64,000 nucleotides of DNA from Patescibacteria group bacterium (lineage in GTDB: Bacteria; Patescibacteriota; Patescibacteriia; Patescibacteriales; UBA12465): contig JBMNFW010000001.1 of NCBI GenBank assembly GCA_050949525.1, positions 529 through 64,528 of the forward strand, given 5' to 3'. This document shows positions 29,164 through 41,496 of this stretch, in pieces; position 1 is the first letter of the stretch, and each line of letters begins with the position of its first letter. The position numbers and the translations under genes were made by a program. The notes beneath the pieces were generated by a model. The model did no database searches and was not told where the DNA came from. It saw only the letters and a program-made list of their open reading frames with translations.

Positions 29164-29168
29164 CTAAT

Positions 29169-29197
29169 TTGACAAAATGAAAAAAAAGTGTTATAAT
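29169..29197 (+). promoter_or_regulatory. Consensus extended -10 promoter
   Basis: TTGACA (29169-29174), 17-nt spacer, TGtTATAAT (29189-29197). Confidence 0.5.
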
Positions 29198-29241
29198 TAT
29201 AATTGTTAAACTTATACAAATTAATAATTTACATTAAAACT

Positions 29242-30117
29242 ATGTTTAATTCTAAAAAACCAACCATCGGAGACTTCGCTAAAGATCAAAATTTCTCAAT
29301 CGAAGATGGAAAATTAAAAAAAGTTGAGCCTTTAACCCCAGAAGAAATTGATAAAAAAGCTGAAGAAGATTTAGAAAAAATGAAAAAAGATCCTAATTAT
29401 GATCCTAGTACTGGAAAAAGCTACTTTGGCGAGGATCAATATCATGATTTTGGAAATAAGGGACGATTTGAAGACGGAGAACCATATGAAATTGGGGATG
29501 ATGAAGAATATAGAATTGAACAAATTGAAGTTGATATAGAAAGCTATGCCAACGAAGATAGTCTTTATCAACATTTTAAAAGAGAAATGGATAATAAGGA
29601 AGATAATGACATAGATTATGATGACGCAATGGGAAAACTAGAAGAAAAAATTATTCGATTTAAAACCGAAAGAAAACAACTTCTAGAATCAACCCCAAAA
29701 TACACTGACTTTGAAAAAGAATCCCTTAAAGCTGTGGTAGCTAAACACCTAAGAGGAAGAGAACAAAAAATTGGAGAAAAACAATTATCAAAAAAACAAG
29801 TAGAGGAAGCTTTAGAAGAGTTTAAACAAAACTTTCCTGCCGACTTCACAAAAATGATTCATAATAAAGTAATTGATAATGATTTAAAATGGAAAAAGGA
29901 AACCTTTGACGGAAAAAAATTATTAGTTAGTTATTATCCTAGTATAGAAGAGCCAATTATAAAATACATTATGAATGATGAACCTAGAAGCAAAGATTCA
30001 ACTAATAAATTGTTTGTAAACACTTCAATGAAAAAAAATGGAAATAATTATAGAAATAAAGATGGAAGTTTCCTAGTATTCTGTTCTCAAATTAAAAGAA
30101 AAAAGAAAAGAAATTAA
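29242..30117 (+). CDS. Hypothetical acidic protein with basic C-terminal tail
   Basis: Start at MFNSKKPTIGDF downstream of the promoter; D/E-rich, ends KRKKKRN; no recognisable motif. Confidence 0.55.
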   Translation: MFNSKKPTIGDFAKDQNFSIEDGKLKKVEPLTPEEIDKKAEEDLEKMKKDPNYDPSTGKSYFGEDQYHDFGNKGRFEDGEPYEIGDDEEYRIEQIEVDIESYANEDSLYQHFKREMDNKEDNDIDYDDAMGKLEEKIIRFKTERKQLLESTPKYTDFEKESLKAVVAKHLRGREQKIGEKQLSKKQVEEALEEFKQNFPADFTKMIHNKVIDNDLKWKKETFDGKKLLVSYYPSIEEPIIKYIMNDEPRSKDSTNKLFVNTSMKKNGNNYRNKDGSFLVFCSQIKRKKKRN

Positions 30118-30132
30118 AATAACAATTAAATT

Positions 30133-30168
30133 AAAAAAGAACATCGATTAAAAGATGTTCTTTTTTTA
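30133..30168. terminator. Bidirectional terminator
   Basis: A-run GAACATC-gattaaaa-GATGTTC T-run between convergent genes. Confidence 0.55.
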
Positions 30169-30188
30169 TTATATAATAATTTATAAAA

Positions 30189-30716
30189 TTATCTACAATT
30201 ATAAGCTTTTCTCCATCCAGCCTTAACGGCCTCCTCTTCCGTACAAAACCATCTTTCTCCATATCTAGTATCAATTTTTGTACTTCTATAATTAGGACAT
30301 CCGGGTAAATGATATATTTTTTCACCGGTTTTATAACTTATATTACCCTTTATTACACAAAAATCACTATTAATATTAAAATTATTATGAGAACTAGTTA
30401 AGTCAAAATCATTATTATTTAAACTATCAATTTGTGTATTTGAAAAAAAATAATTAGAATTATATGAAATTTTATTTAAATCATTGTTTGTTATACCTAA
30501 CCCAAAATTTCTCATAATCACAAAAGCATCAGCCGGACGATCTAAAAAATACATTTTTAAATCAACCGGATTAATATAGTAAGCCTCACCTTTTTCTTCT
30601 ACCTGTAATAATATTCTTCCAGATAATCTTTCCGCTAAACTAGAATTAGCAAAAGAAATAAATGGAATTAATAACGCTAATAAACAAAAAATAAATATTG
30701 ATACTTTTGTTTTCAT
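30189..30716 (-). CDS. Secreted protein: N-terminal RILLQVEE.GEAYYINP module + C-terminal Cys-rich sunset-like domain
   Basis: Signal peptide. AERLSGRILLQVEEKGEAYYINPVDLKMYFLDRPADAFVIMRNFGLGI resembles the N-terminus of the 1-1211 gene. Tail YHLPGCPNYRST...WFCTEEEAVKAGWRKAYNC. Confidence 0.6.
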   Translation of the reverse strand: MKTKVSIFIFCLLALLIPFISFANSSLAERLSGRILLQVEEKGEAYYINPVDLKMYFLDRPADAFVIMRNFGLGITNNDLNKISYNSNYFFSNTQIDSLNNNDFDLTSSHNNFNINSDFCVIKGNISYKTGEKIYHLPGCPNYRSTKIDTRYGERWFCTEEEAVKAGWRKAYNCR

Positions 30717-30763
30717 AAATTTATTTTAAATATATTAATAAAAACTTAAATACTATAATTAAT

Positions 30764-31513
30764 TTATGTAGTAGATTGATATTTTTTTTCTAAATCATCA
30801 AAATAATCTTTATACCTTTTATTAACCTCTTCATCAAAAGCTCGATAATAAATTGGAACATTCTCATAACCTTCCTCCATCCAAACAGGTTTATCAATCT
30901 TATTTGTTCTAACCTGCTCTTCCACTTCTTGTTGATACTTTAAATCATTATTATACAGAGACTCTCTTAACTCTTTAAAATTATTCCCAATAAATAATTT
31001 ATCAAAAACTTTAATCATATTTTTCTGAATATCATTCTTAACATTATTTTTAACAAACTCAGGATTAACAATATAAGCAACTAAAAAATCAGCTTGAAAT
31101 TCACCATATTGATAATCTTCAAAATATTCATCCTCTATATTTTTTCCTGAAGGATAAATATCTAGGTTTTCACTTTTAGTAATTTCTTCAATTTGAAATT
31201 GAAACGCATGACCTAGTTCATGAATAAAATAATAAGGAATCTGACTTTTATTCTCAAAATCGGCATTAATAGTAATACTATCATAATGTTCCGGAGTTCT
31301 AAATTTTGGTAATAACATTGAATGTAGCCCAGGATTATGTTGTGGAATTTTTTTAAAATTAACTAAAACTTTATGATTTAAATAATTAGAAAAATGATCG
31401 ACTATTGATTTGATTGAATTAATATGATGAATGGACAAATCACCAAAAATACACTTTAACTCTCCTTTAGAATATTGCTCAAACTTATTAATATAATTCT
31501 CTTTAAACCTCAT
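30764..31513 (-). CDS. Hypothetical cytosolic protein with HExxH zinc-peptidase motif (ImmA/IrrE-like HELGH?)
   Basis: YYFIHELGHAFQFQ; no signal peptide; family assignment tentative. Confidence 0.45.
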   Translation of the reverse strand: MRFKENYINKFEQYSKGELKCIFGDLSIHHINSIKSIVDHFSNYLNHKVLVNFKKIPQHNPGLHSMLLPKFRTPEHYDSITINADFENKSQIPYYFIHELGHAFQFQIEEITKSENLDIYPSGKNIEDEYFEDYQYGEFQADFLVAYIVNPEFVKNNVKNDIQKNMIKVFDKLFIGNNFKELRESLYNNDLKYQQEVEEQVRTNKIDKPVWMEEGYENVPIYYRAFDEEVNKRYKDYFDDLEKKYQSTT

Positions 31514-31600
31514 AATAATTTTATAAATTAATTTACTAATTATTAAAATTATAACATTATTATAAAAATTAAAAAAATATTTTAATAATACAACATATTA

Positions 31601-31629
31601 AAAAAGATTTAATTTTATTAAATCTTTTA
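31601..31629 (-). terminator. 12-bp A/T-rich hairpin terminator after the 32124-31735 operon
   Basis: AAAAGATTTAAT-TTT-ATTAAATCTTTT. Confidence 0.45.
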
Positions 31630-31688
31630 AAGCTGGGTGGCTTCGTGGAGAATATTAGAACTAAGTTGGTGGGTGCTAAGTATATTCC

Positions 31689-31718
31689 TGCAATTTTACC
31701 CACCCCCTGACTCACTAT
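31689..31718 (-). repeat. 30-bp repeat, copy A (inverted relative to copy B at 38110-38139)
   Basis: - strand ATAGTGAGTCAGGGGGTGGGTAAAATTGCA; 27/30 identical to copy B. Confidence 0.7.
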
Positions 31719-31734
31719 TGTTTTGAGATGAAGC

Positions 31735-32103
31735 TTACTCTAACAACTTCATACAATCAAGAATATTTAAATCAGTAGGACTTCTAAACTCATCATCACA
31801 ATCATTAGAAGCACTTACTTGAGCATTGTATCTATCAATCTCATCACAAACAGGATTAGTAAACTCCATAATACAATCTACGCCGTCATCATAGCCAAGA
31901 GATAAGAGCTTTTCATTAATACAAGTCTCTATGTTTTCCTCTCTCTCATTTATTTTTCTTATACACTCATTATAACCAGAACTCTCCATTAACTTTTCTT
32001 TTTCTTTCTCTAGTTTCTCCACCTTTTTAGAGGGGTCGTTAGAACAACCAGTTGTTAAAACTAGAGCTGTTATTAATATAACAAAAATTGATAGTTTTTT
32101 CAT
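31735..32103 (-). CDS. Small Cys-rich lipoprotein
   Basis: MKKLSIFVILITALVLTTGCS lipobox; 122 aa, multiple Cys. Confidence 0.6.
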   Translation of the reverse strand: MKKLSIFVILITALVLTTGCSNDPSKKVEKLEKEKEKLMESSGYNECIRKINEREENIETCINEKLLSLGYDDGVDCIMEFTNPVCDEIDRYNAQVSASNDCDDEFRSPTDLNILDCMKLLE

Positions 32104-32123
32104 AAATTTTAAAAAGTTAATAT

Positions 32124-33050
32124 TTATTTTTCTAAATTTTTTATTCTTTCAGATACATCAGAGTAAGCTATATCGTGAGAATAAATTTTCTTTAAGCATT
32201 TTAAGGCACTTTTCTTATCGCCATCCTTTTCATAAGCACTTGATAATAAATAATAAACCTTCAACATATCGTCATCCAATTTTCTTTTATTTAAAGGTGC
32301 TCTTTTTAAAACATTAATAGACTCATCATATTTTTCAATCTTTAAAAAACACGCTCCCAACAATTGAATAATTTTTATTTCAAGCTCTGGTAAAATGTCA
32401 ATTAGTTTTTGAAGTATTTTTATCGCCTTTTCATATTCTTTATTTTCGTAATAAGAATCTGCTAAGAAAAATTTAATAGTTAAGTCCTCAGGGTCTTTTT
32501 CTAAATATTTGTTAAAATAATAAATTGATTTTTTAAAATCTTTTTCTGTGCTAAAAAGTAATCCTAATAAGTGAAAAATTTCAATATTTTCATTATCATT
32601 TATTTCAGCTTCTTCTAAAAGCTTGATAGCTTCTTTATTATTATTTTTATCAATTAATCTTTTTGCGTTCCATATTCTTGATTTTGCAATTTGCTTAGGT
32701 TGTTTTTGATAATACACATAAGCAATAATAGATAAAACGGTTAAAAACAAACCTAAATAAATATCTATTGAAAAAGAGCCCAGAACAAGTAAAATTAAAA
32801 TTATATTTAAACACCCCTTGCTTGAAGCATTGTTTGAGTCTTTGCTCTTGCTAGAACTAGTTGATTTTTTATTTAAATAATTAACAGAATATAAGCCACT
32901 TCCAGGAACTCCTGCACTAGTATAAACACCTCTAGAGCCAACACCGACTCTAGCACCTTTTATCCCAGCACTTAATCCAAGTGTCCCCTTGCCTATATTT
33001 AAGCGAACACCTTTTGCTAAAGACACTCCTTTTCTAAATCTAATTCCCAT
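32124..33050 (-). CDS. DUF4236-like N-terminal domain + TM segment + TPR repeats
   Basis: MGIRFRKGVSLAKGVRLNIGKGTLGLSAGIKGARVGVGSRGVYTSAGVPGSGLY (DUF4236 pattern), 2 TM, then TPR-like repeats (YYFNKYLEKDPED..). Confidence 0.65.
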   Translation of the reverse strand: MGIRFRKGVSLAKGVRLNIGKGTLGLSAGIKGARVGVGSRGVYTSAGVPGSGLYSVNYLNKKSTSSSKSKDSNNASSKGCLNIILILLVLGSFSIDIYLGLFLTVLSIIAYVYYQKQPKQIAKSRIWNAKRLIDKNNNKEAIKLLEEAEINDNENIEIFHLLGLLFSTEKDFKKSIYYFNKYLEKDPEDLTIKFFLADSYYENKEYEKAIKILQKLIDILPELEIKIIQLLGACFLKIEKYDESINVLKRAPLNKRKLDDDMLKVYYLLSSAYEKDGDKKSALKCLKKIYSHDIAYSDVSERIKNLEK

Positions 33051-33081
33051 ATAATTAATAACTAATTATTATTTAAAAAAT

Positions 33082-33221
33082 AAAAAAAGACAGTCAAGGT
33101 GTTGAACCACAACAGTTCATCCCGAAGGAATCCCTAGTTATAGAACTTGACTGCCTATTCCAACCTACAACTAGGTAAAAATAGGACGGATTTCCTTCAG
33201 AATATTCTGTTGTGATTCAAC
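33082..33221 (-). promoter_or_regulatory. Structured pseudoknot-type 5' leader (RNA1) of the DUF4236/TPR operon
   Basis: Helices b 33207-33221/33101-33115, c 33188-33198/33124-33133, d 33169-33175/33133-33139. Loop segment 33146-33155 pairs with 33089-33098, then U7 (33082-33088). Both non-WC pairs are G.U only on the - strand. Confidence 0.5.
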
Positions 33222-33227
33222 ATAAAT

Positions 33228-33256
33228 ACTTTACCAATAAAATTAAAAAAAATCAA
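33228..33256 (-). promoter_or_regulatory. Promoter of RNA1 / DUF4236 operon
   Basis: - strand TTGATT (33256-33251), 17-nt spacer, TGgTAAAGT (33236-33228); predicted TSS coincides with first paired base about 33221. Confidence 0.45.
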
Positions 33257-33316
33257 ATAATAAAGCTTTATTTTAATTAATAAAAATGCTAAAATAAGAT
33301 AAAAATTAATATAAAT

Positions 33317-35221
33317 ATGAATATAAATTTTAAAAAAAATGAATCTTTTAATTTATGGAGCAGAGTTAATTTTGTTCTATGGAACAATGCAAGATATGAT
33401 TTTGAGCTTATAGCAGAATTGTTAAAATATATACAAAGCACTTCGCTATGCTTATCAATACTTGATATCACAAATAAGTATATAAAGAACAAAAATGATA
33501 ATACAATATTTTTTGACGGCACAATTAAATCCTTAAAATATTTAATTAAAAATAAATATTTAAATATATCTGATATTCCAGAAATTACAAATGGTCATAA
33601 GAAGCTAAAAGATTTATTAAAAAAATATTCTAAAAAAGTAGATATTATTGATATCTTTTTTGATATAGAAGAGCCCATTTTTAAAGCCATACTAATTGAA
33701 TACCCTCATCTTTTAAACATTGTTCTAGAAGATAGTCTGGGCAGGAGTCTCATTAATAAGGCTTTGATAAAAAATGGAGTAGCCAATTATAATGATTTTT
33801 TAAAAAAAATTAATAACAGTTTAGACCGAACAGAGGTTAGCGAAGATAAATACTCCAAAGAGGCTATGAAATGTAAAATAATTTATGTTGGATTGTTTTT
33901 AAATAACAAAAAAATTATAATTTCTAAAGACTCTCCTGAGATGATTAATCTTTTTTCAACCCTAACTGATAAATTAATAGAAAGCGAAAATTATAGTAAG
34001 GGTATAATAAACTCATTATACTCTTCTTTATATGGACACAATAAATGGAATAAAGAAAAAAAAGTTTGTCTTACTGGTTGTGAACTTTTAAAATCAAATT
34101 TTCTATTGCTTTCCTTTCCAGAAAACCATATAGCATTTATTTATGAAATGCTTTTAAAAAACGAAACTGAAAAAATAGGAAAAAAATATTTTGGCGATAA
34201 TTACAATTCTGAGGGCTTTATAGCCTCCTTGGCCATCAAAATGATTGTTATAATTATTATTTTTCGTAGTCAAGATTTTGTTCCAAAAGATGAATTAGCC
34301 GAGGTAGCTTTTTTTAGCAAAGGAGCATTGCTAGATGGCTTAAACTACGCTGTAAAAGAAAGTGAAAAAAATGGAAAAAAAATATTAAAACCTAAGCAAT
34401 GGTTTATTAATTATTACAAAAAAGAATTAGAGAAAAGAGTAGCTTTTATAAAATTTCAAGTTGATAATAATATTTCAGTTGTTGAATTAAGAGAAGGTCT
34501 ACCTCGTGTAATTTATCTGCCAATATTTGAAAGTTTTAGATTTTTTTGTTCTCAACTTCCGCAAATAGAAACTTTGAAACAAATTATAAAGCTCTTTACT
34601 AATAAAAATATTAAAAATGAAATAAAAAATGACATTCTAGTAAATTTTGCTTTGAACATACAAGAAATAATAAGCCAAAAAGATGAAAGTGTTAAATTAT
34701 CAAATGAAGAAAATCATTTTAAAGATGCATTTATAATATTAATAGAGCAAATTTTTAAAAATTTAATAAAAAAAGAAATAGATAGATTAAAACTGCAATC
34801 AAAAATTAAAAGCTATTATGAAGAAAGTGATTTGTTTAGCGACGCTAGTATTTCTATTATTGAGCTAATTTTAAGTTTTGATTTAACAAAAAATGATAGC
34901 TTTATCGGATATTTAAAGTATAATTTAAACTTAAAAATTAAAACTAAAATTCGCCCAAAGAAAAGCGATTATCTTACCAGCTTTGAGAACGAGCTTGCGG
35001 ATGATTTTATGGACAGTATTCCAGATGAAAATGATTTAATTGAACAAATAAATAATAAAGAGAATATTATAAAAATAAACGAATATATTAATAATTTACC
35101 AGAAAAACAAAAGGAGGCAATTAGAAAATATTATAAAGAAAACAAAAAATTATCTGACTCAGAAAGAAAAAATAAAAACAGGGGTCTAAATAAAATAAAA
35201 GAAATTATTTTAAATTCCTGA
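33317..35221 (+). CDS. Large hypothetical protein with C-terminal sigma-70 region-4-like HTH
   Basis: 634 aa; C-terminus LPEKQKEAIRKYYKENKKLSDSERKNKNRGLNKIKEII resembles the region 4.2 pattern LP.rqRev..l.y...s..eia...g.....l.ra. Confidence 0.5.
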   Translation: MNINFKKNESFNLWSRVNFVLWNNARYDFELIAELLKYIQSTSLCLSILDITNKYIKNKNDNTIFFDGTIKSLKYLIKNKYLNISDIPEITNGHKKLKDLLKKYSKKVDIIDIFFDIEEPIFKAILIEYPHLLNIVLEDSLGRSLINKALIKNGVANYNDFLKKINNSLDRTEVSEDKYSKEAMKCKIIYVGLFLNNKKIIISKDSPEMINLFSTLTDKLIESENYSKGIINSLYSSLYGHNKWNKEKKVCLTGCELLKSNFLLLSFPENHIAFIYEMLLKNETEKIGKKYFGDNYNSEGFIASLAIKMIVIIIIFRSQDFVPKDELAEVAFFSKGALLDGLNYAVKESEKNGKKILKPKQWFINYYKKELEKRVAFIKFQVDNNISVVELREGLPRVIYLPIFESFRFFCSQLPQIETLKQIIKLFTNKNIKNEIKNDILVNFALNIQEIISQKDESVKLSNEENHFKDAFIILIEQIFKNLIKKEIDRLKLQSKIKSYYEESDLFSDASISIIELILSFDLTKNDSFIGYLKYNLNLKIKTKIRPKKSDYLTSFENELADDFMDSIPDENDLIEQINNKENIIKINEYINNLPEKQKEAIRKYYKENKKLSDSERKNKNRGLNKIKEIILNS

Positions 35222-35253
35222 TGTCCCATTTTTTAATCTGGTTGCATTTAATA

Positions 35254-35278
35254 AGTAGAGGGTATCCTCTACTTTTTT
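35254..35278 (+). terminator. Rho-independent terminator after the 634-aa gene
   Basis: AGTAGAGG-GTAT-CCTCTACT followed by T-run. Confidence 0.65.
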
Positions 35279-35295
35279 AGTTTGCAAACAATTTA

Positions 35296-35309
35296 ACCAA
35301 CGCGTTGGT
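35296..35309. promoter_or_regulatory. Perfect 14-bp palindrome, candidate operator upstream of the 35335 gene
   Basis: ACCAACGCGTTGGT, relatively GC-rich in an AT-rich spacer, 26 nt before the ATG. Confidence 0.3.
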
Positions 35310-35334
35310 AATCTAAAAATTAATCAAAATTAAT

Positions 35335-35589
35335 ATGATTACCAAAAACAAGGAATTAAAACCGTTTATAACGGCGGACTTAAATTTGGCTTCTACCCTA
35401 ATATCACTTAACTACGAGATATTAGATTTAGACAAGTCAAATCCTAAAAAAATACAATTCGTCTTTGCTCGCTCCCCCAGACTCATAAAAGAAATAAATG
35501 ATTATTGGGGAGGGCTCTTAAGAATTAATCCTAGAATACTTTTTGACTCCCAGAAAATGCTTAAGTGTCGCCTGTATTCATCCGAATGA
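35335..35589 (+). CDS. DUF5659-like small protein
   Basis: 84 aa; FITADLNLASTLISLNYEILDLDKSNPKKIQFVFARS...LKCRLYS resembles the DUF5659 pattern common in phage/CPR elements (from memory). Confidence 0.5.
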   Translation: MITKNKELKPFITADLNLASTLISLNYEILDLDKSNPKKIQFVFARSPRLIKEINDYWGGLLRINPRILFDSQKMLKCRLYSSE

Positions 35590-35590
35590 T

Positions 35591-35743
35591 ATGATTACAG
35601 ATAAAAAACTAAAAGAGCTTCAAGAGATATATAAAACTGAATTCGGTCAGGATATCTCCAAAGAAGAAGCCTTGGACATCGGTCTAAGATTAGTAAATTT
35701 GTTTACTGCTATTATAGGCTCTTATCCAAATAATAAAAATTAA
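35591..35743 (+). CDS. Small hypothetical protein (50 aa)
   Basis: Start moved to MITDKKLKELQEIY, 1 nt after the previous stop (ATGATATG junction). Confidence 0.4.
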   Translation: MITDKKLKELQEIYKTEFGQDISKEEALDIGLRLVNLFTAIIGSYPNNKN

Positions 35744-35753
35744 TATTAATAAT

Positions 35754-36017
35754 ATGAAGTCCATTCAAAGAAGATTTAAAAACATTCAAGAAAAAAATCC
35801 TTACTGGAGCTCAATGACTTGCTTTAATGAAGCAATAAAAGAACAGGGCTTTAGTAAGAAAAATATCTACTATTGGTTTTCTAGATTAGTAGATAAGAAA
35901 GACTACAGTAAAAGCGATAAGAAAGAAATCCTCTCCTTTCTCCTCAAGCTCTCAAAAAGGGCTGAGGAGGGCATAAAAAAGGGCAAAATTAGCCCTAAGA
36001 GAGAATTGTTTGTCTAA
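35754..36017 (+). CDS. Small hypothetical basic protein
   Basis: 87-aa ORF in operon context; no motif. Confidence 0.45.
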   Translation: MKSIQRRFKNIQEKNPYWSSMTCFNEAIKEQGFSKKNIYYWFSRLVDKKDYSKSDKKEILSFLLKLSKRAEEGIKKGKISPKRELFV

Positions 36018-36057
36018 AACGACTGTAGCATCAAATTATAATTAAAATTAAAATAAT

Positions 36058-38121
36058 ATGTATTTAAACACTATAAAAATAAGAGAATATTTAGACCAAA
36101 AAGGGATTAAATATTCAGAAGCAAATGGAGAGCTAATTACTGACTGTGTATTCTGCGGAAAAGCAAGGCATTTATACTTTAGCTCTGAGACTAGTCAATA
36201 CGATTGCAAGGTTTGCGGAGAGCAAGGAAATATCTATACCCTTGCCAAACACTTAGGAGATAAAAATAGCGATGTTGTTATCTCTAAAAGAAATAACTAC
36301 AAACAAGAGGTTAACTTTAGCCTCTCTTTAGTTGAAAAATGCCATAAAGCACTCCCCGATAATATTAGAGACTATCTTAATAAAAGAGGGGTTAATGATG
36401 AAATTATAAATACCTATAAACTAGGCTTTGGCACTTTTTATAGAAAGAAATGGATTACTATCCCCATCAAAAACAAAGATGGGGAGTATATCTTCTTCAA
36501 ACTTCGCCAATCTCCTGAAGAGGGAAATGATAAAATAACTTATCCTAAAGGAATTGAAGCTCAAATCTATGACTGGGAGGAAGCTAAACAAACAGAAGAA
36601 AAAATAATGATTTGTGAGGGAGAGCTTGATAGCTTACTCTTGTTATCAAAAGGAGTAAAAGCTATAACTTCTACTCACGGAGCAATGACCTTTAAGAGAG
36701 AGTGGATTGAAGAGATAAGTAAAAACTTTAAAGATATTTATATCTGCTTTGATAACGATGAAGCTGGAAAAAAAGGAGCTAAGAGAATAGCTAAAATCTT
36801 AGAGGATTATGATAATAATATTTTTATCACTTCTCTACCCGAAGAAGTTGGAGTTGGTGGCGATATTACTGATTATTTTATTAAGCTTAATGGAGGTGTA
36901 GATGACTTATTTTCAAAACACTCCAAAGAATATCCTAAAAAAATTGATAGCTCAAACTTTAAAGAGATAGGCTCTGAAGATTTAATCAAAACTCTTGATT
37001 TAACTATTAAAAGAGATAATGAAAACAAATTAATAACATTTCTCTGTCAGTTATCTGCCTATACTGAGAGCTCTCAATTAAATGTAAGTTTTAATGCTCC
37101 CTCTTCTACTGGCAAATCTTATATCCCGATGGAGATAGCTAAGCTTTTCCCAAAAGAAGATATTGTTGAGATAGGTTATTGTAGCCCGACTGCCTTCTTC
37201 CACGATTCAGGGGAGATAGATAAAAACAAGGGAGAATTACTAGTTGATTTATCTAGAAAGATTATTATATTCCTTGACCAGCCTCACACCTTATTACTTC
37301 AACATCTTAGACCACTTTTATCTCACGACAAAAAGGAGATAAATATTAAGATAACTGATAAATCTCAGAAGTCTGGTCTTAGAACTAAGAATGTTATTCT
37401 ACGAGGCTTCCCTGCTGTTATCTTTTGCACTGCTGGATTAAAAATTGATGAGCAAGAATCAACTAGATTTATATTGCTCAGCCCAGAGGCTAATCAAGAT
37501 AAGATAAGAGAAGCTATCTTGCAAAAGATTAATAAAGAGTCTGACGATAACAATTATAATAACTTCTTAGATAACAATGAGGAAAGAGCTTCCTTGAAAA
37601 AAAGAATTATAGCTATTAAGGGAGAAAGAATAAGGGATATAAAAATAGCCTCTCCTGAAAAAATAAAAGATTTGTTTATTAGTAAAAATAAAATCCTAAA
37701 ACCTAGGCATCAAAGAGATATAGGAAAAATAATATCTCTCACTAAAGCCTTCGCTCTTTTAAATTTATGGTTTAGAGACAGAAATGGCTCTACTATACTA
37801 GCCAACGATAATGATATTGAAGAAGCCTTTAATGTTTGGGATAAAATTTCAAAGAGCCAAGAGCTCAATCTCCCCCCATTCATCTTTAACATCTACAAGG
37901 AGATAATTATCCCATCTTGGAAGGATAATAAGAAAAAAGGTATAAGCCGACAAGATATCTTTAAAAAATATTCAGAAATTAATGGGAGAGGTATAGCCGA
38001 TTGGATTTTAAGACAGCAAGTTATTCCCTCTCTTGAAGATTCTGGATTAATAATACAAGAAAAAGACAAAGATGATAAAAGAAAAATACTAATCTACCCG
38101 ACAAATAATATAGTGAGTTAA
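36058..38121 (+). CDS. Primase-helicase-type replication protein (Zn finger + TOPRIM + P-loop domain)
   Basis: CVFCGK..(18)..CKVCGEQG zinc finger; TOPRIM ICEGELDSLLL / CFDNDEAGKKGAKR; Walker-A-like NAPSSTGKSY in C-terminal half. Confidence 0.75.
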   Translation: MYLNTIKIREYLDQKGIKYSEANGELITDCVFCGKARHLYFSSETSQYDCKVCGEQGNIYTLAKHLGDKNSDVVISKRNNYKQEVNFSLSLVEKCHKALPDNIRDYLNKRGVNDEIINTYKLGFGTFYRKKWITIPIKNKDGEYIFFKLRQSPEEGNDKITYPKGIEAQIYDWEEAKQTEEKIMICEGELDSLLLLSKGVKAITSTHGAMTFKREWIEEISKNFKDIYICFDNDEAGKKGAKRIAKILEDYDNNIFITSLPEEVGVGGDITDYFIKLNGGVDDLFSKHSKEYPKKIDSSNFKEIGSEDLIKTLDLTIKRDNENKLITFLCQLSAYTESSQLNVSFNAPSSTGKSYIPMEIAKLFPKEDIVEIGYCSPTAFFHDSGEIDKNKGELLVDLSRKIIIFLDQPHTLLLQHLRPLLSHDKKEINIKITDKSQKSGLRTKNVILRGFPAVIFCTAGLKIDEQESTRFILLSPEANQDKIREAILQKINKESDDNNYNNFLDNNEERASLKKRIIAIKGERIRDIKIASPEKIKDLFISKNKILKPRHQRDIGKIISLTKAFALLNLWFRDRNGSTILANDNDIEEAFNVWDKISKSQELNLPPFIFNIYKEIIIPSWKDNKKKGISRQDIFKKYSEINGRGIADWILRQQVIPSLEDSGLIIQEKDKDDKRKILIYPTNNIVS

Positions 38122-38139
38122 GGGGTGGGTAAAATTACA
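38110..38139 (+). repeat. 30-bp repeat, copy B, overlapping the primase stop codon
   Basis: ATAGTGAGTTAAGGGGTGGGTAAAATTACA; 27/30 identical to reverse complement of 31689-31718. Confidence 0.7.
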
Positions 38140-38155
38140 ATTAATTTATATTTAT

Positions 38156-38788
38156 ATGAATAAAGAAAATAATAAGCTAATAAAAAGCAAAGAACAAAAG
38201 CTAGAAGAGTGGAAAAAAAAGATGGAAAATGATAGCACGGCTATTAATGAAGGCAAGGATTTTTTAATGTCCTGCTGTAAAACACAATACGATATTGATG
38301 AAAGGCTTAAGAAAGTTTCCAGAGATATCCAATCAAAAATACAAATAAAAAAAGAGGATTTAAACGAAGATGAAATAAATATTTTAAAAGACTCTCTTTA
38401 TGGCATTGGAATAGATAGCGGATATCATTTAATAGAAATAACTCCCGACAATCTACAAATGTTAGTAAATAATCTAAGAAGTAGCTTAATAAAAGAATTT
38501 AATTGCACGACTTATACTGAAAAAATATTAATTGATACTATTATAAATTCTTATATTAGAAATCTTAATTACAGTAAAAAACTATTAAATACAACTGAAT
38601 TAGGGAAAACTAGCCCTGAAATAAATGGGTATATAAAAGAAATGAGCAAAGAAATAGACAGAGCTAATCGTCATTTCTTAAACTCTTTACAGACCTTAAA
38701 AGAACTTAAACAACCAGATTTAAAAGTTAATATTAAAGCAAACACCGCCTTCTTTGGAGAGAAACAAGAGTTTAATAATAAGAAATAA
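38156..38788 (+). CDS. Hypothetical protein
   Basis: 210-aa ORF, coiled-coil-like N-terminus, no motif. Confidence 0.5.
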   Translation: MNKENNKLIKSKEQKLEEWKKKMENDSTAINEGKDFLMSCCKTQYDIDERLKKVSRDIQSKIQIKKEDLNEDEINILKDSLYGIGIDSGYHLIEITPDNLQMLVNNLRSSLIKEFNCTTYTEKILIDTIINSYIRNLNYSKKLLNTTELGKTSPEINGYIKEMSKEIDRANRHFLNSLQTLKELKQPDLKVNIKANTAFFGEKQEFNNKK

Positions 38789-38792
38789 TAAT

Positions 38793-39128
38793 ATGAAATC
38801 ATTAAGCCCTAATAATTTAGGAAAGAAATTAACCTCTTCCTGCAAACAGATAAATATATCTGATTACTTAAAATTAGCCAAGAATGAAATCAAAAAAGTT
38901 TTCTTGTATTCAAAGATGGAAATTGAAGGATATGGCGATGTTGAGCTGATAACAGCTAAAACTGGTATTTCTGGAAATAGATACTGGTTTAAATGCCCTA
39001 TTTGCAGTAAAAGAGCTGGCATTATCTATAAACATCCAGTAAATAACCTTATAGGTTGTCGTAAATGCTTAAACCTAGAATACAAAAGCAGAAGATTTAA
39101 AGGAATGCTTGAAAATTTGGAAAAATAG
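38793..39128 (+). CDS. Small zinc-ribbon protein
   Basis: Start at MKSLSPNN; CPICSKR..(22)..CRKC four-Cys ribbon. Confidence 0.5.
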   Translation: MKSLSPNNLGKKLTSSCKQINISDYLKLAKNEIKKVFLYSKMEIEGYGDVELITAKTGISGNRYWFKCPICSKRAGIIYKHPVNNLIGCRKCLNLEYKSRRFKGMLENLEK

Positions 39129-39145
39129 CATTTTTATGCTATAAT
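39117..39145 (+). promoter_or_regulatory. Extended -10 promoter of the recombinase leader
   Basis: TTGGAA (39117-39122), 17-nt spacer, TGCTATAAT (39137-39145); predicted TSS about 39152. Confidence 0.45.
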
Positions 39146-39151
39146 ATAAGT

Positions 39152-39273
39152 GCTTACTCAATACAAATTAATATGCAAGGGTTTTATATTTTTATCGCCT
39201 GAAAGGGGCGGTTCTGCCGATAAAACTCACCTTTGCGTAAGTTTGTATTGGGTAAGCCAGAACCGTCCCTTTT
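39152..39273 (+). promoter_or_regulatory. Structured pseudoknot-type 5' leader (RNA2) of the serine recombinase gene
   Basis: Helices A 39152-39167/39242-39257, D 39172-39181/39230-39239, C 39190-39197/39218-39225. Loop 39205-39216 pairs with 39258-39269, then UUUU. All G.U pairs are + strand specific. Confidence 0.5.
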
Positions 39274-39294
39274 AGTTAAATTAATATTAAAAAT

Positions 39295-40890
39295 ATGAAT
39301 CAAAATGAAAAAACAATTAAATATTTTCTCTATGCCAGAAAATCTTCTGAAAGTGAAGACAGGCAAACACAATCAATTGATGACCAAATTAATCATTTAA
39401 AAAGCTTAGCTATAGACTTAGGGCTGGATATAGTTAAAGTTTTTACTGAATCTAAATCAGCTAAACAACCAAACAATAGACCCGTCTTTGAAGAAATGAT
39501 AAATAAAATAGAAAAGGGGGAGGGAGACGGAATTCTTTGTTGGCAGATTAATCGCTTATCAAGAAATCCTGTAGACTCTGGGAGGATAAACTGGCTACTA
39601 CAACAAGGGATAATAAAGTCTATCCAGACTATTGATAAAAAATATTTACCAGAAGATAATGTTTTGATGTTTAATGTAGAAAGTGGGATGGCTAATCAAT
39701 TTATTTTGGAATTAAGAAAAAACACTAAAAGAGGTTTGTTGAGTAAGGCAGAAAAAGGATGGCTACCATCTAGAGCTCCCCAAGGGTATCTAAATGATGT
39801 TATTGAAAAAATAATTATTAAAGACCCAAAAAGATTTGATTTAGTTAGAAAGATGTGGGACTTAATGTTAACAGGAAATTATAGCCCTCCAGCTATATTA
39901 GATATAGCTAATAATGATTGGGGTTATTTAACAGAAATGAGAAAAAGAGACGGGGGGAGACCTCTTTCATTAAGTGAGCTTTATAGAATATTTAATAGCT
40001 CCTTTTATTATGGGTATTTTGATTATAAAGGAGTTTTATATGAAGGAAAACACGAAGCAATGATAACACTTGATGAATTTGAAAGAGTTCAGGAGTTATT
40101 AGGAAATAAAAGTAAGGCTAAAAAAAGAAAAAATGAATTTGCCTTTACTGGAATTATTAAATGTGCTTATTGCGGTTGCTCAATAACTGCTGATAAAAAA
40201 ACTAAGCTTATTAAATCTACAGGAGAAAGAAATAGCTACACCTATTATCGTTGCACCAGAAGAAAGAGAGATTTAAAGTGTAAAGAGCCAAGCATAACAT
40301 CAGGGGAAATTGAAAAACAGATAATTAAAGAAATAGAAAAATATACTATTTCAGAAAAATTTAAAGACTGGGCTTTAAGTGTTTTAAAAGAAAAAAGTGA
40401 AAAAGAAGCTGAGGTTAATAATCAATCTTATATCTTGCTAAATAATAAATATTTAGAGCTACAAAAACAATTAAATAATTTATTACAAATGAGACTAAGA
40501 GAATTAATCAGTGATGATGAATTTCTGAGAGAAAAAAGCAAACTACAAGAAGAAATAAACAAAACTAAGATAAAAATATCACAAAATCAAGACAAAAGCC
40601 AAAATTGGATAGAATTAGTTGAAAGAGCCTTCTGTTTTGCAACTTATGCCAGAGATAGCTTTATTAATGGAGATTTAAAGACAAAAAAAGAGATATTTTC
40701 AGCTTTAGGGCAATCATACACCTTAAAAGACGGCAAAATAGAGATAAAACCAGTTAATTGGATAATTCCTATTTCTAACCTAGAAAAAAATAGCAAAATT
40801 GAAAACAAACGGTTAGAACCAACGAAAATTGGCTTAAATAAAGCAAAAAACGAAGCTAATTGCCTCGTTTCTGCTCAATGGGGTGACTAG
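39295..40890 (+). CDS. Large serine recombinase (integrase type)
   Basis: Resolvase-type N-terminus YARKSSESEDRQTQSIDDQ...NRLSRN, recombinase domain, Zn ribbon CAYCGC...YYRCTRRKRDLKC, coiled-coil C-terminus. Last 12 nt overlap tRNA-His. Confidence 0.85.
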   Translation: MNQNEKTIKYFLYARKSSESEDRQTQSIDDQINHLKSLAIDLGLDIVKVFTESKSAKQPNNRPVFEEMINKIEKGEGDGILCWQINRLSRNPVDSGRINWLLQQGIIKSIQTIDKKYLPEDNVLMFNVESGMANQFILELRKNTKRGLLSKAEKGWLPSRAPQGYLNDVIEKIIIKDPKRFDLVRKMWDLMLTGNYSPPAILDIANNDWGYLTEMRKRDGGRPLSLSELYRIFNSSFYYGYFDYKGVLYEGKHEAMITLDEFERVQELLGNKSKAKKRKNEFAFTGIIKCAYCGCSITADKKTKLIKSTGERNSYTYYRCTRRKRDLKCKEPSITSGEIEKQIIKEIEKYTISEKFKDWALSVLKEKSEKEAEVNNQSYILLNNKYLELQKQLNNLLQMRLRELISDDEFLREKSKLQEEINKTKIKISQNQDKSQNWIELVERAFCFATYARDSFINGDLKTKKEIFSALGQSYTLKDGKIEIKPVNWIIPISNLEKNSKIENKRLEPTKIGLNKAKNEANCLVSAQWGD

Positions 40891-40954
40891 AGGGAATCGA
40901 ACCCTCCCCGCCGGGACCACAACCCGGAGTTCTAGCCGCTAAACTATAGTCACC
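40879..40954 (-). tRNA. tRNA-His (anticodon GTG) with G-1 and encoded CCA
   Basis: G-1 + GTGACTA/TAGTCAC acceptor, C73, anticodon arm CCGGG-TTGTGGT-CCCGG, T arm GAGGG-TTCGATT-CCCTC, 3' CCA encoded. Confidence 0.85.
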
Positions 40955-40965
40955 ATAAATCGAGC

Positions 40966-41496
40966 CTAAACTCGATAAAAATAAATATTATTATCTCCTT
41001 CTTTTATGGTTTTTTCTAACTCTAAATCTTTTACTTTAAAACAATAACTAATTAATAAAGTTCCTGGTCGACATTCTTTCTTTATTTTAGACCCTAACTT
41101 ATTCATTGTTTTAGGATTAAGAAAACAATAAATAATATCAGCTTCTCTAAGATTAATCTTAAAAAAATCTTTTCGAATTATTTTTATTCTACTATTACTA
41201 AGAGATAATTGAAGTCTAGCTAAAAAATAGGGCCACCAAGAATACTCAACTCCTACTAATTTATCATTTTTAAATTTCTCCTCAACAGCTCTTAAGAAAC
41301 CGGCTTGACCAGCACCCAATTCATAAACAACTTCATCACCAGTTAAATCTAACTCTTTTATAATAGTTAAAATAACTCTAAATTTAGTGGAAATAAAAGG
41401 AGCAAAACCTCTGAAAACAATATTAAAAAACTGAATAGATAGTAAAACAATAATAACCAACAAAAGAACAAAAATAAAGGTAAAAAAATAAATCAT
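40966..41496 (-). CDS. Class I SAM-dependent methyltransferase with N-terminal TM helix
   Basis: Motif I YELGAGQAGF; 176 aa. Confidence 0.6.
   Translation of the reverse strand: MIYFFTFIFVLLLVIIVLLSIQFFNIVFRGFAPFISTKFRVILTIIKELDLTGDEVVYELGAGQAGFLRAVEEKFKNDKLVGVEYSWWPYFLARLQLSLSNSRIKIIRKDFFKINLREADIIYCFLNPKTMNKLGSKIKKECRPGTLLISYCFKVKDLELEKTIKEGDNNIYFYRV

What the first reader, a model, noticed from the sequence alone, without database searches (positions are those of the whole stretch)
29169..40954. Accessory island between truB and tRNA-His: serine-recombinase integrative element with its own replication module
From 33.3 to 40.9 kb all genes are co-oriented and mobile-element-like. They are a 634-aa protein with a sigma region-4-like C-terminus, a DUF5659-like 84-aa protein, 50- and 87-aa ORFs, and a Zn-finger/TOPRIM/P-loop primase-helicase. 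After these come a 210-aa ORF, a Cys4 ribbon protein and a 531-aa large serine recombinase that ends inside tRNA-His. Genes to the left (29.2-33.05 kb) have no housekeeping signature: an acidic protein, a sunset-domain secreted protein, an HELGH metallopeptidase-like protein, a lipoprotein and DUF4236/TPR. By eye, Arg codons in the primase and DUF4236 genes are almost all AGA, whereas dnaA and truB use many CGA/CGT. No capsid, terminase or conjugation genes are visible. It therefore looks like a satellite or integrative-plasmid-type element, comparable in logic to P4-like elements but with a serine rather than tyrosine integrase.
Basis: partly seen in the sequence, partly recalled or inferred. 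Interest (0 to 1): 0.6.

Follow-up and report, generated by a model that had tools for sequence, protein, structure and literature searches.

The report
Serine-integrase mobile element in tRNA-His
A 9.2-kb mobile DNA element with its own integrase, DNA-replication enzyme and sigma-factor-like protein sits in the end of a tRNA-His gene of an ultra-small (Patescibacteria) bacterium. It is missing from most strains of the same species and belongs to a widespread, apparently undescribed family of such elements.

Summary
Comparison with conspecific contigs from 14 samples that have an empty site puts the insertion at window 31640-40885 (9,246 bp). It is flanked by a 5-bp identity, GGGTG, at the 3' end of tRNA-His.

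The element carries:
- a lipoprotein and a DUF4236/TPR protein as cargo, on the minus strand;
- a structured-RNA candidate;
- a 634-aa protein whose C-terminal ~155 aa is a sigma-70-family module;
- DUF5659 and two small ORFs;
- a DnaG-type primase fused to a P-loop/AAA+-like ATPase and a winged helix;
- two small proteins and an intact large serine recombinase (LSR).

attP lies inside the LSR reading frame, so integration replaces a conserved 23-aa C-terminal tail. The antisense strand of the LSR 3' end gives the tRNA an encoded CCA and a terminator hairpin. A conserved ~20-bp site occurs in inverted copies at the primase 3' end and beside attL.

Relatives in Patescibacteria and Margulisbacteria share this backbone, target other tRNAs and carry different cargo, often a methyltransferase plus helicase. 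No capsid, terminase or relaxase gene was found. No circular junction of this element was found.

Verdict: a genuine integrative, probably self-replicating element. Whether it is a satellite or a plasmid-like element is unresolved.

The parts
31635..31639 (.). attL core: GGGTG, shared by attB, attL and attR. It is the left junction of the insertion.
   Evidence: blastn overlap of 5 bp between the two host segments. Sequences read.
31640..40885 (.). The integrative element: 9,246 bp including one copy of the core.
   Evidence: Absent from 18 loci of 14 samples that carry the exact attB. Present here and in L001/L021.
31640..31710 (+). P' arm of attP, and the coding sequence for the C-terminal tail that the recombinase would have in the circular form (GFVENIRTKLVGAKYIPAILPTP, then stop at 31708-31710).
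   Evidence: In-silico circular junction gives a 553-aa ORF. The tail motif is conserved in L022, L023, L031 and L032, and in the database proteins P0220, P0253 and P0261.
31699..31717 (-). Left copy of the conserved cis site ATAGTGAG-N5-GGTGGGTAAA. The wider inverted-repeat arm is 31689-31718.
   Evidence: 30-nt inverted repeat, 90% complementary to 38110-38139. 0 matches expected by chance. Same arrangement in L023, L029, L030/31, L032 and L034.
31735..32103 (-). Cargo: 122-aa predicted lipoprotein (signal peptide with LTTGC lipobox).
   Evidence: Translation. No Pfam family. Absent from empty-site strains.
32124..33050 (-). Cargo: 308-aa protein with DUF4236, a hydrophobic segment and TPR repeats.
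   Evidence: Pfam DUF4236 2.5e-16, TPR_2 4.7e-17. No PADLOC match.
33087..33225 (-). Candidate structured RNA or leader upstream of the cargo operon. It ends in a hairpin plus U-run 36 nt before the DUF4236/TPR start codon.
   Evidence: MFE -58.8 kcal/mol, z = -6.6, 0 of 200 shuffles as stable. No Rfam family. Not a remnant of the HTH_17 gene found here in relatives.
33317..35221 (+). 634-aa protein: an orphan, mostly helical N-terminal ~470 aa fused to a C-terminal sigma-70-family module (regions 2 and 4).
   Evidence: 37 homologues, all in this element type. Sigma70_r2 is hit weakly in 19 of 37. The profile retrieves more than 100 proteins of sigma-factor size (~170-240 aa) at positions 480-635; 8 of 8 of those tested are true sigma factors. 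AF2 pLDDT 79. No whole-chain fold match.
35335..35589 (+). 84-aa DUF5659 protein, conserved across the wider element family.
   Evidence: Pfam PF18903 2.3e-05. Present in L022-L025 and L030-L035.
35591..36017 (+). Two small ORFs (50 aa at 35591-35743, 87 aa at 35754-36017) of unknown function.
   Evidence: ORF list. Gene calls in L001. No family hits.
36058..38121 (+). 687-aa replication protein: zinc ribbon, DnaG/Toprim primase, P-loop ATPase (APSSTGKS; IIFLDQ) and a C-terminal winged helix.
   Evidence: Toprim_2 1.1e-12. phrog_47 DNA primase 2.2e-27. Foldseek: 2au3 4e-14, Twinkle 3e-12, T7 gp4, MCM 1e-5, ORC 4e-4. MarR-like match E = 0.008. More than 2,550 homologues.
38111..38129 (+). Right copy of the conserved cis site, overlapping the primase stop codon. 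The wider inverted-repeat arm is 38110-38139.
   Evidence: The motif is kept at the DNA level although the reading frame here differs from relatives.
38156..38788 (+). 210-aa protein of unknown function. It fills a variable slot between the primase and the recombinase.
   Evidence: No family hit. Not similar to the protein at the same position in L032.
38793..39128 (+). 111-aa Cys4 (CxxC...CxxC) zinc-ribbon protein directly upstream of the recombinase. It is a candidate directionality factor by inference only.
   Evidence: Translation. Gene call in L001. No family hit.
39295..40890 (+). Large serine recombinase, 531 aa as integrated. Its last codons (W G D stop) are antisense to the tRNA-His CCA and acceptor end.
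   Evidence: Resolvase 1e-21, Zn_ribbon_recom 1.8e-11, Recombinase 1.3e-06. phrog_95 2.5e-71. A118 integrase C-terminal domain 9e-09. 42% identical to the L032 recombinase.
40846..40872 (-). Terminator-like hairpin plus U-run lying directly 3' of tRNA-His on the tRNA strand. It is encoded antisense within the recombinase 3' end (the P arm of attP).
   Evidence: Terminator scan. RNAfold -17.7 kcal/mol. Equivalent hairpins with different stem sequences in L022, L024, L031 and L034. The native terminator hairpin is seen in the empty site L002.
40881..40885 (.). attR core GGGTG, corresponding to tRNA-His positions 70-74 on the minus strand.
40879..40953 (-). Host tRNA-His(GTG), the target. It stays intact after insertion, and its 3' trailer changes from CAG to an encoded CCA.
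   Evidence: ARAGORN. Rfam tRNA 59.6 bits. Sequences.

Best explanation
Window 31640-40885 is a 9,246-bp site-specific integrative element of a Patescibacteria (candidate phyla radiation) bacterium.

Shown:
- It is an insertion relative to conspecific genomes.
- It lies exactly at the 3' end of tRNA-His, with a 5-bp identity GGGTG (tRNA positions 70-74) at both junctions. That pattern is the signature of a large serine recombinase acting on short attP and attB sites.
- The recombinase gene is intact and abuts the junction.
- The tRNA is preserved.

Inferred:
- The free form is a circle in which the recombinase ORF runs across attP and is 553 aa long.
- Integration swaps its conserved 23-aa tail for 'D-stop' read from the tRNA antisense strand. 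The enzyme therefore differs between the free and integrated states.
- The antisense strand of the same DNA supplies the tRNA with an encoded CCA and a replacement terminator. This would limit damage to the host and block tRNA read-through into the recombinase gene.
- After excision, which needs an unidentified directionality factor, the Toprim primase / P-loop ATPase / winged-helix protein would start and drive replication. The conserved inverted ATAGTGAG-N5-GGTGGGGTAAA sites (primase 3' end, and beside attP) are the best candidates for its binding sites or origin.
- The 634-aa sigma-70-family fusion protein would direct host RNA polymerase to element promoters.

The minus-strand arm is a variable cargo slot: a lipoprotein and DUF4236/TPR here, and a methyltransferase plus helicase in relatives. 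The route of cell-to-cell transfer is unknown.
For: Insertion and junctions:
- Empty and occupied sites, and the junctions.
- tRNA-His is intact in both states.

Recombinase:
- Recombinase domains.
- The circular-form ORF and the conserved tail: window, L022, L031 and L032; P0220, P0253 and P0261.
- An unintegrated relative with intact attP and no tRNA (L035).
- Family members sit in the 3' ends of tRNA-His, Met, Asn and Gln, always with the recombinase ORF running into the tRNA.
- Antisense terminator hairpins with co-varying stems.

Replication and transcription:
- Replication protein domains.
- The cis site is conserved in position and orientation in 5 of 6 distinct primase-bearing relatives. 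It was not detected in the two relatives that lack the primase.
- Sigma module.

Foreign origin and cargo:
- Foreign codon and k-mer signature.
- Variable cargo.
Against: - No circular (attP) junction of this element was found in JGI metagenome contigs, by an exact 22-mer or by a family-degenerate pattern. Only two assemblies carry it.
- One of those two assemblies has a 437-nt frameshifting deletion in the recombinase gene, so the element can decay in place.
- No directionality factor is recognisable. The HTH_17 (excisionase-like) gene present in relatives L022, L023, L034 and L035 is missing here.
- The role of the cis site as an origin, the role of the sigma module, and any effect of the tail swap are inferences with no functional data.
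- The cis site is absent at the primase end of L024/L025.
- The ATPase class of the middle domain is known only from a medium-confidence model (pLDDT 75.6).
Confidence: 0.72

Rival explanations
1. Phage satellite. The element is integrated and silent until a helper phage of the Patescibacteria host infects. It then excises, replicates with its primase-ATPase and is packaged in helper capsids. The sigma-like protein redirects transcription, and the unknown small proteins interfere with the helper.
For: - Size (9.2 kb) and gene logic match known satellites: integrase, primase-type replication protein, small unknown genes, and no virion genes.
- Defence-type cargo in relatives (methyltransferase + ResIII helicase, Imm_superinfect).
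- A satellite that uses a large serine recombinase is known: the PLEs of Vibrio cholerae (PMC9638900, listed).
Against: - There is no recognisable capsid-remodelling, small-terminase, packaging-site or helper-sensing gene.
- No relative was found in the IMG/VR viral contig collection with either the 634-aa or the primase profile.
- No helper phage is known.
Confidence: 0.22
2. Decaying remnant. The block is a leftover of a larger prophage or plasmid that is now fixed and immobile, and its genes are drifting.
For: One of the two assemblies carrying it has a frameshifting 437-nt deletion in the recombinase. No circular junction was found. The HTH_17 gene of relatives is missing.
Against: - In the window all nine ORFs are intact and both att half-sites match those of relatives.
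- The same compact backbone of ~9-16 kb recurs in several phyla with no structural genes in any copy.
- The site is empty in 14 of the sampled populations with otherwise ~99.9-100% identical flanks. That points to a recent gain or frequent loss.
Confidence: 0.08
3. Core, non-mobile accessory island that spans truB to tRNA-His. This is the full extent the reader gave.
For: The three genes at 29.2-31.5 kb have no family assignment. They share the AGA-rich Arg usage of the element (77%, p = 0.008 against host).
Against: Those three genes are present, in the same order, in every empty-site strain. The insertion junction is at 31639/31640.
Confidence: 0.02

Closest known systems
Large serine recombinase (LSR) integrases of temperate phages and mobile elements: A118/LI, TP901-1, phiC31, Bxb1
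   Same: - Same three-domain enzyme: Resolvase, Recombinase and zinc ribbon, with sequence similarity to the A118 integrase C-terminal domain and the TP901-1 catalytic domain.
- Very short identity between attP and attB (5 bp here).
- Unidirectional logic that needs a separate directionality factor (established knowledge; PMC3783163, listed).
   Different: - The target is the extreme 3' end of a tRNA gene.
- attP lies inside the enzyme's own reading frame, so the C-terminal 23 aa are exchanged on integration.
- The antisense strand of the coding 3' end doubles as a tRNA terminator.
- No phage genes accompany it.
Satellite phage P4 and P4-like elements
   Same: A small integrative element in a tRNA gene. 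Its replication depends on one large protein that combines a Toprim-type primase, an NTPase and a C-terminal DNA-binding domain acting on two separated sets of repeated sites. The P4 side (alpha protein, ori and crr) is from my own knowledge. The window side rests.
   Different: - Serine, not tyrosine, integrase.
- No detectable homologues of the P4 helper-exploitation genes (sid, psu, delta). Nothing in PHROGs beyond primase and integrase.
- The primase is only ~26% identical to phage primase-helicases over its N-terminal half.
- A helper is unknown.
[quoted passage not shown]
   Same: A satellite-type island that integrates with a large serine recombinase and replicates with its own initiator (PMC9638900, listed).
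   Different: PLEs integrate in Vibrio cholerae repeats rather than tRNA genes, use a RepA_N-type initiator and are ~18 kb (my own knowledge). No sequence relationship was found here.
Elements whose attP lies inside the integrase gene: SSV1-type archaeal viruses and plasmids, Myxococcus phage Mx8 intP (my own knowledge; archaeal cases reviewed in PMC8371274, listed)
   Same: Integration into a tRNA gene changes or splits the integrase coding sequence, so free and integrated forms encode different proteins.
   Different: Those enzymes are tyrosine recombinases. SSV-type integration splits the gene in two, whereas here only a short conserved tail is replaced.

Membership tests
Large serine recombinase (serine integrase) | N-terminal resolvase-type catalytic domain with the serine nucleophile motif | tested here: met
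   PF00239 1e-21 at residues 11-155. The motif YARKSSESEDRQ is visible in the translation. TP901-1 and Sin/Tn552 catalytic domains matched.
Large serine recombinase (serine integrase) | C-terminal recombinase domain plus zinc beta-ribbon domain | tested here: met
   PF07508 1.3e-06 and PF13408 1.8e-11. A118 integrase C-terminal domain 9e-09 over residues 225-421.
Large serine recombinase (serine integrase) | Short att sites with only a few bp of attP/attB identity around a 2-bp crossover | tested here: inconclusive
   The shared core is 5 bp, GGGTG, which fits the family. The crossover dinucleotide itself cannot be located from sequence.
Large serine recombinase (serine integrase) | A cognate recombination directionality factor for excision | not testable with these tools
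   No recognisable candidate. The Cys4 111-aa and 210-aa proteins have no family. The HTH_17 gene of relatives is absent here.
Site-specific integrative mobile element | Presence/absence polymorphism among close relatives, with a precise junction and an intact target in the empty state | tested here: met
   The exact 30-nt attB is in 18 loci from 14 samples. attL/attR occur only in L001/L021 and the window. tRNA-His is intact in both states.
Site-specific integrative mobile element | An excised or free form with a reconstituted attP | tested here: not met
   - For this element: 0 matches to the predicted attP junction in JGI metagenome contigs.
- For relatives: intact attP and a full-length recombinase in L035, and full-length tails in P0220, P0253 and P0261.
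Phage satellite (P4-like, PICI, PLE) | Genes that exploit a helper phage: capsid-size redirection, small terminase or packaging site, helper-sensing derepression | tested here: not met
   Pfam, PHROGs and PADLOC give nothing beyond primase, integrase and DUF5659. Orphan proteins could hide such functions.
Phage satellite (P4-like, PICI, PLE) | Packaging in helper virions; presence in viral fractions | tested here: inconclusive
   No relative in IMG/VR with either protein profile. Absence from one catalogue is weak evidence.
P4-like elements specifically | Tyrosine integrase of the P4 type | tested here: not met
   The only recombinase is a serine recombinase.
Prophage | Capsid, portal, terminase and tail genes | tested here: not met
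   No such family in any ORF of 31640-40885, nor in any of the related loci.
Integrative conjugative or mobilisable element | Relaxase, coupling protein or type IV secretion genes | tested here: not met
   No relaxase or T4SS family was hit in the element. oriT cannot be tested.
Sigma-70 family (for the 634-aa protein) | Homology to region 2 and region 4 | tested here: met
   - 19 of 37 family members hit Sigma70_r2 (best 1.5e-4) and 2 hit Sigma70_r4_2.
- Profile positions ~480-635 retrieve more than 100 proteins of ~170-240 aa at E 1e-7 to 1e-3 in 1.84 billion proteins. 8 of 8 of those tested carry Sigma70_r2, and 5 of the 8 also carry an r4 domain.
- The window protein alone stays below Pfam thresholds.
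DnaG/Toprim primase fused to a replicative ATPase (T7 gp4 / Twinkle / P4 alpha type) | Zinc ribbon, Toprim catalytic core and a P-loop NTPase domain in one chain | tested here: met
   - Toprim_2 1.1e-12. Foldseek: 2au3 4e-14, Twinkle 3e-12, T7 gp4 ~1e-8, MCM 1e-5.
- Walker A APSSTGKS and Walker B IIFLDQ are in the sequence and invariant in 27 homologues.
- Helicase activity and the ATPase class are not testable here.

The most novel reading that the evidence does not exclude
The window holds a member of a previously undescribed family of compact, self-replicating serine-integrase elements that spans several phyla: thousands of primase homologues in Patescibacteria, Margulisbacteria and other uncultured lineages. 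The family has a shared design:
- attP embedded in the integrase reading frame, so that integration into a tRNA 3' end removes a conserved C-terminal peptide (an integration-dependent switch of the enzyme);
- an antisense-encoded CCA plus terminator that repairs the tRNA gene;
- primase-linked inverted cis sites that serve as the origin;
- in one subfamily, a giant sigma-factor fusion protein that takes over transcription.

Such elements would be the main carriers of defence cargo in these reduced genomes and a natural integrative and replicative vector backbone for them. They might be satellites of still unknown Patescibacteria phages.
Probability: 0.35. Interest if true: 0.72.

Novelty: new variant of a known kind. 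Interest (0 to 1): 0.55.

Why it matters
Patescibacteria are abundant and almost uncultured, and they have tiny genomes in which mobile elements are poorly documented. The full-text searches run here found no description of this element type.

- A precisely delimited, intact 9.2-kb element, together with matching empty sites, gives a ready-made attP/attB pair and a recombinase for a lineage that lacks genetic tools. It also gives a candidate replicon.
- At family level the design is unusual for serine integrases, which are widely used in genome engineering. attP sits inside the integrase frame, a tRNA terminator is encoded on the antisense strand, and tRNA 3' ends are the targets.
- The design suggests a built-in difference between the free-form and integrated-form enzyme that can be tested directly.
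- The variable cargo arm (methyltransferase plus helicase modules in relatives) suggests these elements move defence genes among ultra-small bacteria.

Tried and rejected
- A duplicated tRNA-His 3' fragment at the left end, as tyrosine-integrase islands have: none found. The junctions share only 5 bp.
- Rfam for the structured region 33087-33225: only chance microRNA matches.
- A pseudogene origin of that region from the HTH_17 gene of relatives: rejected by tblastn.
- Whole-chain fold searches of the 634-aa model against PDB and BFVD: nothing significant. The only suggestive hit was a phage sigma factor at E = 1.5.
- Homology between the 634-aa protein and the 729-aa protein at the same position in L031: none. 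The same holds for the 210-aa protein against the L032 199-aa protein.
- PADLOC on cargo and orphan proteins: no defence family.
- attP junction searches in JGI metagenome contigs: 0 hits twice.
- Related ~9-kb contigs L022, L033, L034 and L035 tested for circular terminal overlaps: none. The first three proved to be integrated copies.
- The conserved cis site read as a sigma-70-type promoter or a terminator: spacing is poor, and promoter-like hits in this AT-rich DNA are at chance level (53 found against 46 expected).
- Alignment-based covariation counting for the antisense terminator: abandoned. MAFFT put the stems out of register, so the argument rests on individual folds.
- Literature searches for DUF5659, and for Patescibacteria plus serine recombinase or integrative elements: no description found.

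Full report
**1. What is in the sequence**

The window is AT-rich (about 28% G+C throughout). From 33317 to 40890 every sizeable ORF is on the plus strand.

- The last ORF (39295-40890, 531 aa) has the three domains of a large serine recombinase (LSR): Resolvase 1e-21, Recombinase 1.3e-06 and Zn_ribbon_recom 1.8e-11.
- It matches the PHROG integrase family phrog_95 at 2.5e-71.
- It matches the A118 integrase C-terminal domain and the TP901-1 catalytic domain among solved structures.
- Its stop codon lies inside tRNA-His(GTG), 40879-40953 on the minus strand.

| Item | Evidence |
|---|---|
| DUF5659 protein | 2.3e-05 |
| 50- and 87-aa ORFs, 210-aa ORF, CxxC...CxxC protein | |
| Toprim protein of 687 aa | |
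| DUF4236/TPR | |
| Lipobox protein and an HELGH protein | translations, |

No capsid, terminase, portal, relaxase or secretion family was hit anywhere.

**2. Where the element really begins and ends**

Exact-protein look-ups of the flanking TruB and of the 176-aa methyltransferase returned many contigs of the same species.

- In nearly all of them the order is TruB, 291-aa, 175-aa, 249-aa, tRNA-His, methyltransferase, with nothing in between.
- blastn shows that window 28001-31639 and 40881-42000 are contiguous in those contigs at 99.9-100% identity and overlap by 5 bp.
- The three junctions read as follows:
  - attB: aaagctGGGTGactagagg
  - attL: aaagctGGGTGgcttcgtgg
  - attR: ctcaatgGGGTGactagagg
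- The insertion is therefore 31640-40885, 9,246 bp, with GGGTG at 31635-31639 and 40881-40885.
- A 30-nt attB string is present in 18 fetched loci from 14 different samples. attL/attR occur only in the window and in one JGI contig, L001/L021.

The acidic 304-aa, secreted 175-aa and HELGH 249-aa genes (29203-31513) are not part of it. The lipoprotein and the DUF4236/TPR genes are.

**3. Composition**

- G+C does not mark the element (0.290 against 0.281).
AGA makes up 78% of Arg codons in element genes against 50% in 39 host ORFs (Fisher p = 2.5e-7).
- The element has the largest tetranucleotide distance of 55 windows of equal size.
- The three neighbouring non-element genes share the AGA bias (77%, p = 0.008).

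**4. The target and what integration does to it**

- The 5-bp core corresponds to tRNA-His positions 70-74, so only the trailer changes. The empty site reads ...CACC-CAG and the occupied site reads ...CACC-CCA, an encoded CCA end. ARAGORN and Rfam find an intact tRNA in both states.
- In the empty site the tRNA is followed by an A/T hairpin and a T-run. After integration that hairpin is displaced to attL.
- In the occupied site, the DNA now 3' of the tRNA is the antisense of the recombinase 3' end. It folds into an 11-bp hairpin followed by a U-run (40846-40872).
- Related elements have a hairpin plus U-run in the same place with different stem sequences. L022, L024, L031 and L034 are clear cases. 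For L032 I see a short TCGAG/CTCGA stem plus T-run by eye, but the minimum-free-energy fold did not choose it. L033 is weak.
- I read this as a replacement terminator for the tRNA gene, written on the antisense strand of the integrase coding sequence. That reading is an inference from structure and conservation.

**5. attP lies inside the recombinase gene**

- Joining 40885 to 31640 in silico extends the ORF to 553 aa, ending ...AQWGGFVENIRTKLVGAKYIPAILPTP. The integrated gene ends ...AQWGD-stop, using the tRNA antisense strand.
- The same holds for relatives. L022 would end RWGGIVNDVRTRIITNNNILIPSLS and L032 RWGGLLNQVRTCLMSQPA. The left end of L031 encodes ...RIVDNVRIIIQQQNEYIYIPDLREYADV.
- Database proteins P0220, P0253 and P0261 carry full tails of this type: W-x-x-h-V-x-x-V-R-T/N ... 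IYIP-D/E-L.
- P0261 sits on a 9,252-bp contig (L035) that has an intact attP and no tRNA, so it is an unintegrated copy.
- The conserved peptide reaches well beyond the ~25 bp expected of an att half-site. That argues for selection on the protein as well as on the DNA.
- Integration therefore removes a conserved C-terminal peptide from the recombinase. Whether this changes activity, stability or directionality is unknown.

**6. The rest of the backbone**

*The 687-aa protein.*
- It has an N-terminal zinc ribbon and a DnaG/Toprim core.
- A model built on 27 homologues (pLDDT 75.6) matches Aquifex DnaG (4e-14), Twinkle (3e-12) and T7 gp4. Through its C-terminal half it also matches MCM (1e-5) and ORC (4e-4) ATPases.
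- Walker A (APSSTGKS) and Walker B (IIFLDQ) motifs are invariant in the family.
- The last ~65 residues resemble a MarR-type winged helix (E = 0.008).

*The 634-aa protein.*
- It has only 37 homologues, all about 620-657 aa and all in this kind of element.
- Its model (pLDDT 79) found no whole-chain match.
- 19 of 37 members weakly hit Sigma70_r2.
- A family profile searched against 1.84 billion proteins retrieved more than 100 proteins of 170-240 aa, aligned to profile positions ~480-635.
- All eight that I checked are sigma factors with a region 2 domain, and five of the eight also carry a region 4 domain.
- The protein is an orphan ~470-aa domain fused to a sigma-70-family module.

**7. A conserved cis site**

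- A 30-nt inverted repeat (90% complementary, none expected by chance) links 31689-31718, 60 nt inside attL, with 38110-38139, which overlaps the primase stop.
- Its core, ATAGTGAG-N5-GGTGGGGTAAA, recurs in the same two places and orientations in L030/L031 (Paceibacterota), L032 (Margulisbacteria, three copies) and L034 (four copies). It is also at the left ends of L023 and L029 and at the primase end of L033.
- In relatives it encodes the primase C-terminal peptide NNSE..GGV. In the window the frame differs, yet the DNA is kept. The left copies are non-coding or in another frame.
- The constraint is therefore on the DNA.
- The site was not detected in the two relatives that lack the primase (L022, L035) or at the primase end of L024/L025.
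- In the circular form the two copies bracket the module of small proteins, recombinase and attP.
- The best guess is that they are binding sites for the winged-helix end of the replication protein, meaning an origin. This would parallel the separated ori and crr repeats bound by P4 alpha (P4 facts from my own knowledge). This is inference only.

**8. The family**

- The primase has more than 2,550 homologues at about 60% identity over its full length. Source names include Patescibacteria, Paceibacterota, Nomurabacteria, Moranbacteria, Margulisbacteria, Saganbacteria and Thermodesulfovibrionia.
- The recombinase has more than 3,300 homologues.
- Sampled loci share the order: large variable gene, DUF5659, one or two small ORFs, primase, one or two unknown proteins, recombinase. 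They end in tRNA-His (window, L022, L032), tRNA-Met (L024/L026), tRNA-Asn (L030/L031) or tRNA-Gln (L033).
- The window and Margulisbacteria recombinases are 42% identical.
- The arm on the opposite strand varies:
  - N6_N4 methyltransferase plus ResIII helicase in L023, L024, L025, L030 and L031;
  - Imm_superinfect and an HTH_3 protein in L032;
  - an AlbA_2 protein in L035;
  - lipoprotein plus DUF4236/TPR here.
- Several relatives have a conserved HTH_17 (excisionase/MerR-like) gene divergent from the first backbone gene (the 634-aa homologue in L022, L023 and L034; a 235-aa gene in L035). The window element has none. It has a strongly structured 140-nt region there instead.
- None of the family was found in IMG/VR. 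Only four loci were found among GTDB species representatives.

**9. Is it active?**

- In the window all ORFs are intact.
- The only other assembly with the element has a 437-nt frameshifting deletion inside the recombinase, so decay in place occurs.
- Two scans of JGI metagenome contigs for the predicted attP junction found nothing. This test is weak, because it needs exact matches, searches assembled contigs only, and the element is rare.
- Mobility is supported by the presence/absence polymorphism and by unintegrated relatives. It is not supported by a direct excision product of this element.

**10. Interpretation and comparison**

The best-supported reading is an integrative, probably self-replicating element that inserts by serine recombination into the 3' end of tRNA-His.

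- It works like P4-type and PLE-type satellites or like integrative plasmids.
- It is not a member of the P4 family, because it has a serine integrase and no P4 helper-exploitation genes.
- It is not a prophage or a conjugative element, because defining genes were tested for and not found.
- Satellite versus plasmid-like cannot be decided with these data. I put about 0.2 on the satellite reading.
- Full-text searches found no description of this element type.
- I rate it a new variant of a known kind. What is new lies in the attP-in-frame design, the antisense tRNA terminator, the primase-linked cis sites, the sigma-fusion protein and the host range among uncultured phyla.

Noticed in passing
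window 33087-33225 (minus strand): A G+C-richer intergenic stretch folds into a long, three-way-junction hairpin (-58.8 kcal/mol, z = -6.6). It ends in a hairpin plus U7 36 nt upstream of the DUF4236/TPR start. It has no Rfam family, is unique to this element, and sits where relatives have an HTH_17 gene. It could be a small RNA or an attenuator-type leader.
   Followed up: partly
window 31689-31718 and 38110-38139; also L030-L034, L023, L029: Conserved inverted cis site ATAGTGAG-N5-GGTGGGGTAAA at the primase 3' end and next to attL, in 2-4 copies per element across phyla. Its function is unknown; an origin or binding site for the replication protein is proposed.
   Followed up: partly
L021 13448-13463 (equivalent to window 39521-39957): The only other assembly with this element (JGI 3300061404) has a 437-nt deletion between 16-nt direct repeats. 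It frameshifts the recombinase gene, so that copy is locked.
   Followed up: yes
window 29203-31513: The three orphan genes next to the element (acidic 304 aa, secreted 175 aa, HELGH 249 aa) are core to the species. They still share the element's AGA-rich arginine codon usage (77% against 50%). They may be an older acquisition at the same tRNA hotspot, or weakly expressed genes.
   Followed up: partly
L004 11728-12435 (equivalent to window 30189-30716): In one strain (GCA_046128275.1) the secreted 175-aa protein is 235 aa long because of an internal duplication of about 180 bp (window 30495-30630 aligns twice).
   Followed up: no
window 40879-40885 versus L002 13171-13177: The host tRNA-His gene does not encode CCA in empty-site strains (trailer CAG). 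After insertion the element supplies an encoded CCA.
   Followed up: yes
L018 end (sample ERZ21942150): One contig of an empty-site strain stops 2-3 nt past the att core, while another contig of the same sample spans the site. This could be an assembly break caused by mixed occupied and empty populations, or it could be chance.
   Followed up: no
L001 2271-2723 (about window 20.7-21.2 kb); L011 1-969 (dnaA, about 9-10 kb to the right of the methyltransferase gene at window 40966-41496): The host region carries a T4SS_pilin (PF18895) gene. The element lies about 10 kb from dnaA and the rpmH-rnpA-yidD-yidC cluster, so it is close to the presumed replication origin of a genome assembled as a contig of about 0.74 Mb.
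   Followed up: no
L022 6283-6594; L035: Some relatives lack the primase gene altogether (L022 has a SpoVG-like gene in that slot) but keep the DUF5659 protein and the recombinase (L022 also keeps the sigma-fusion protein). The replication module is therefore dispensable or supplied in trans in part of the family.
   Followed up: no
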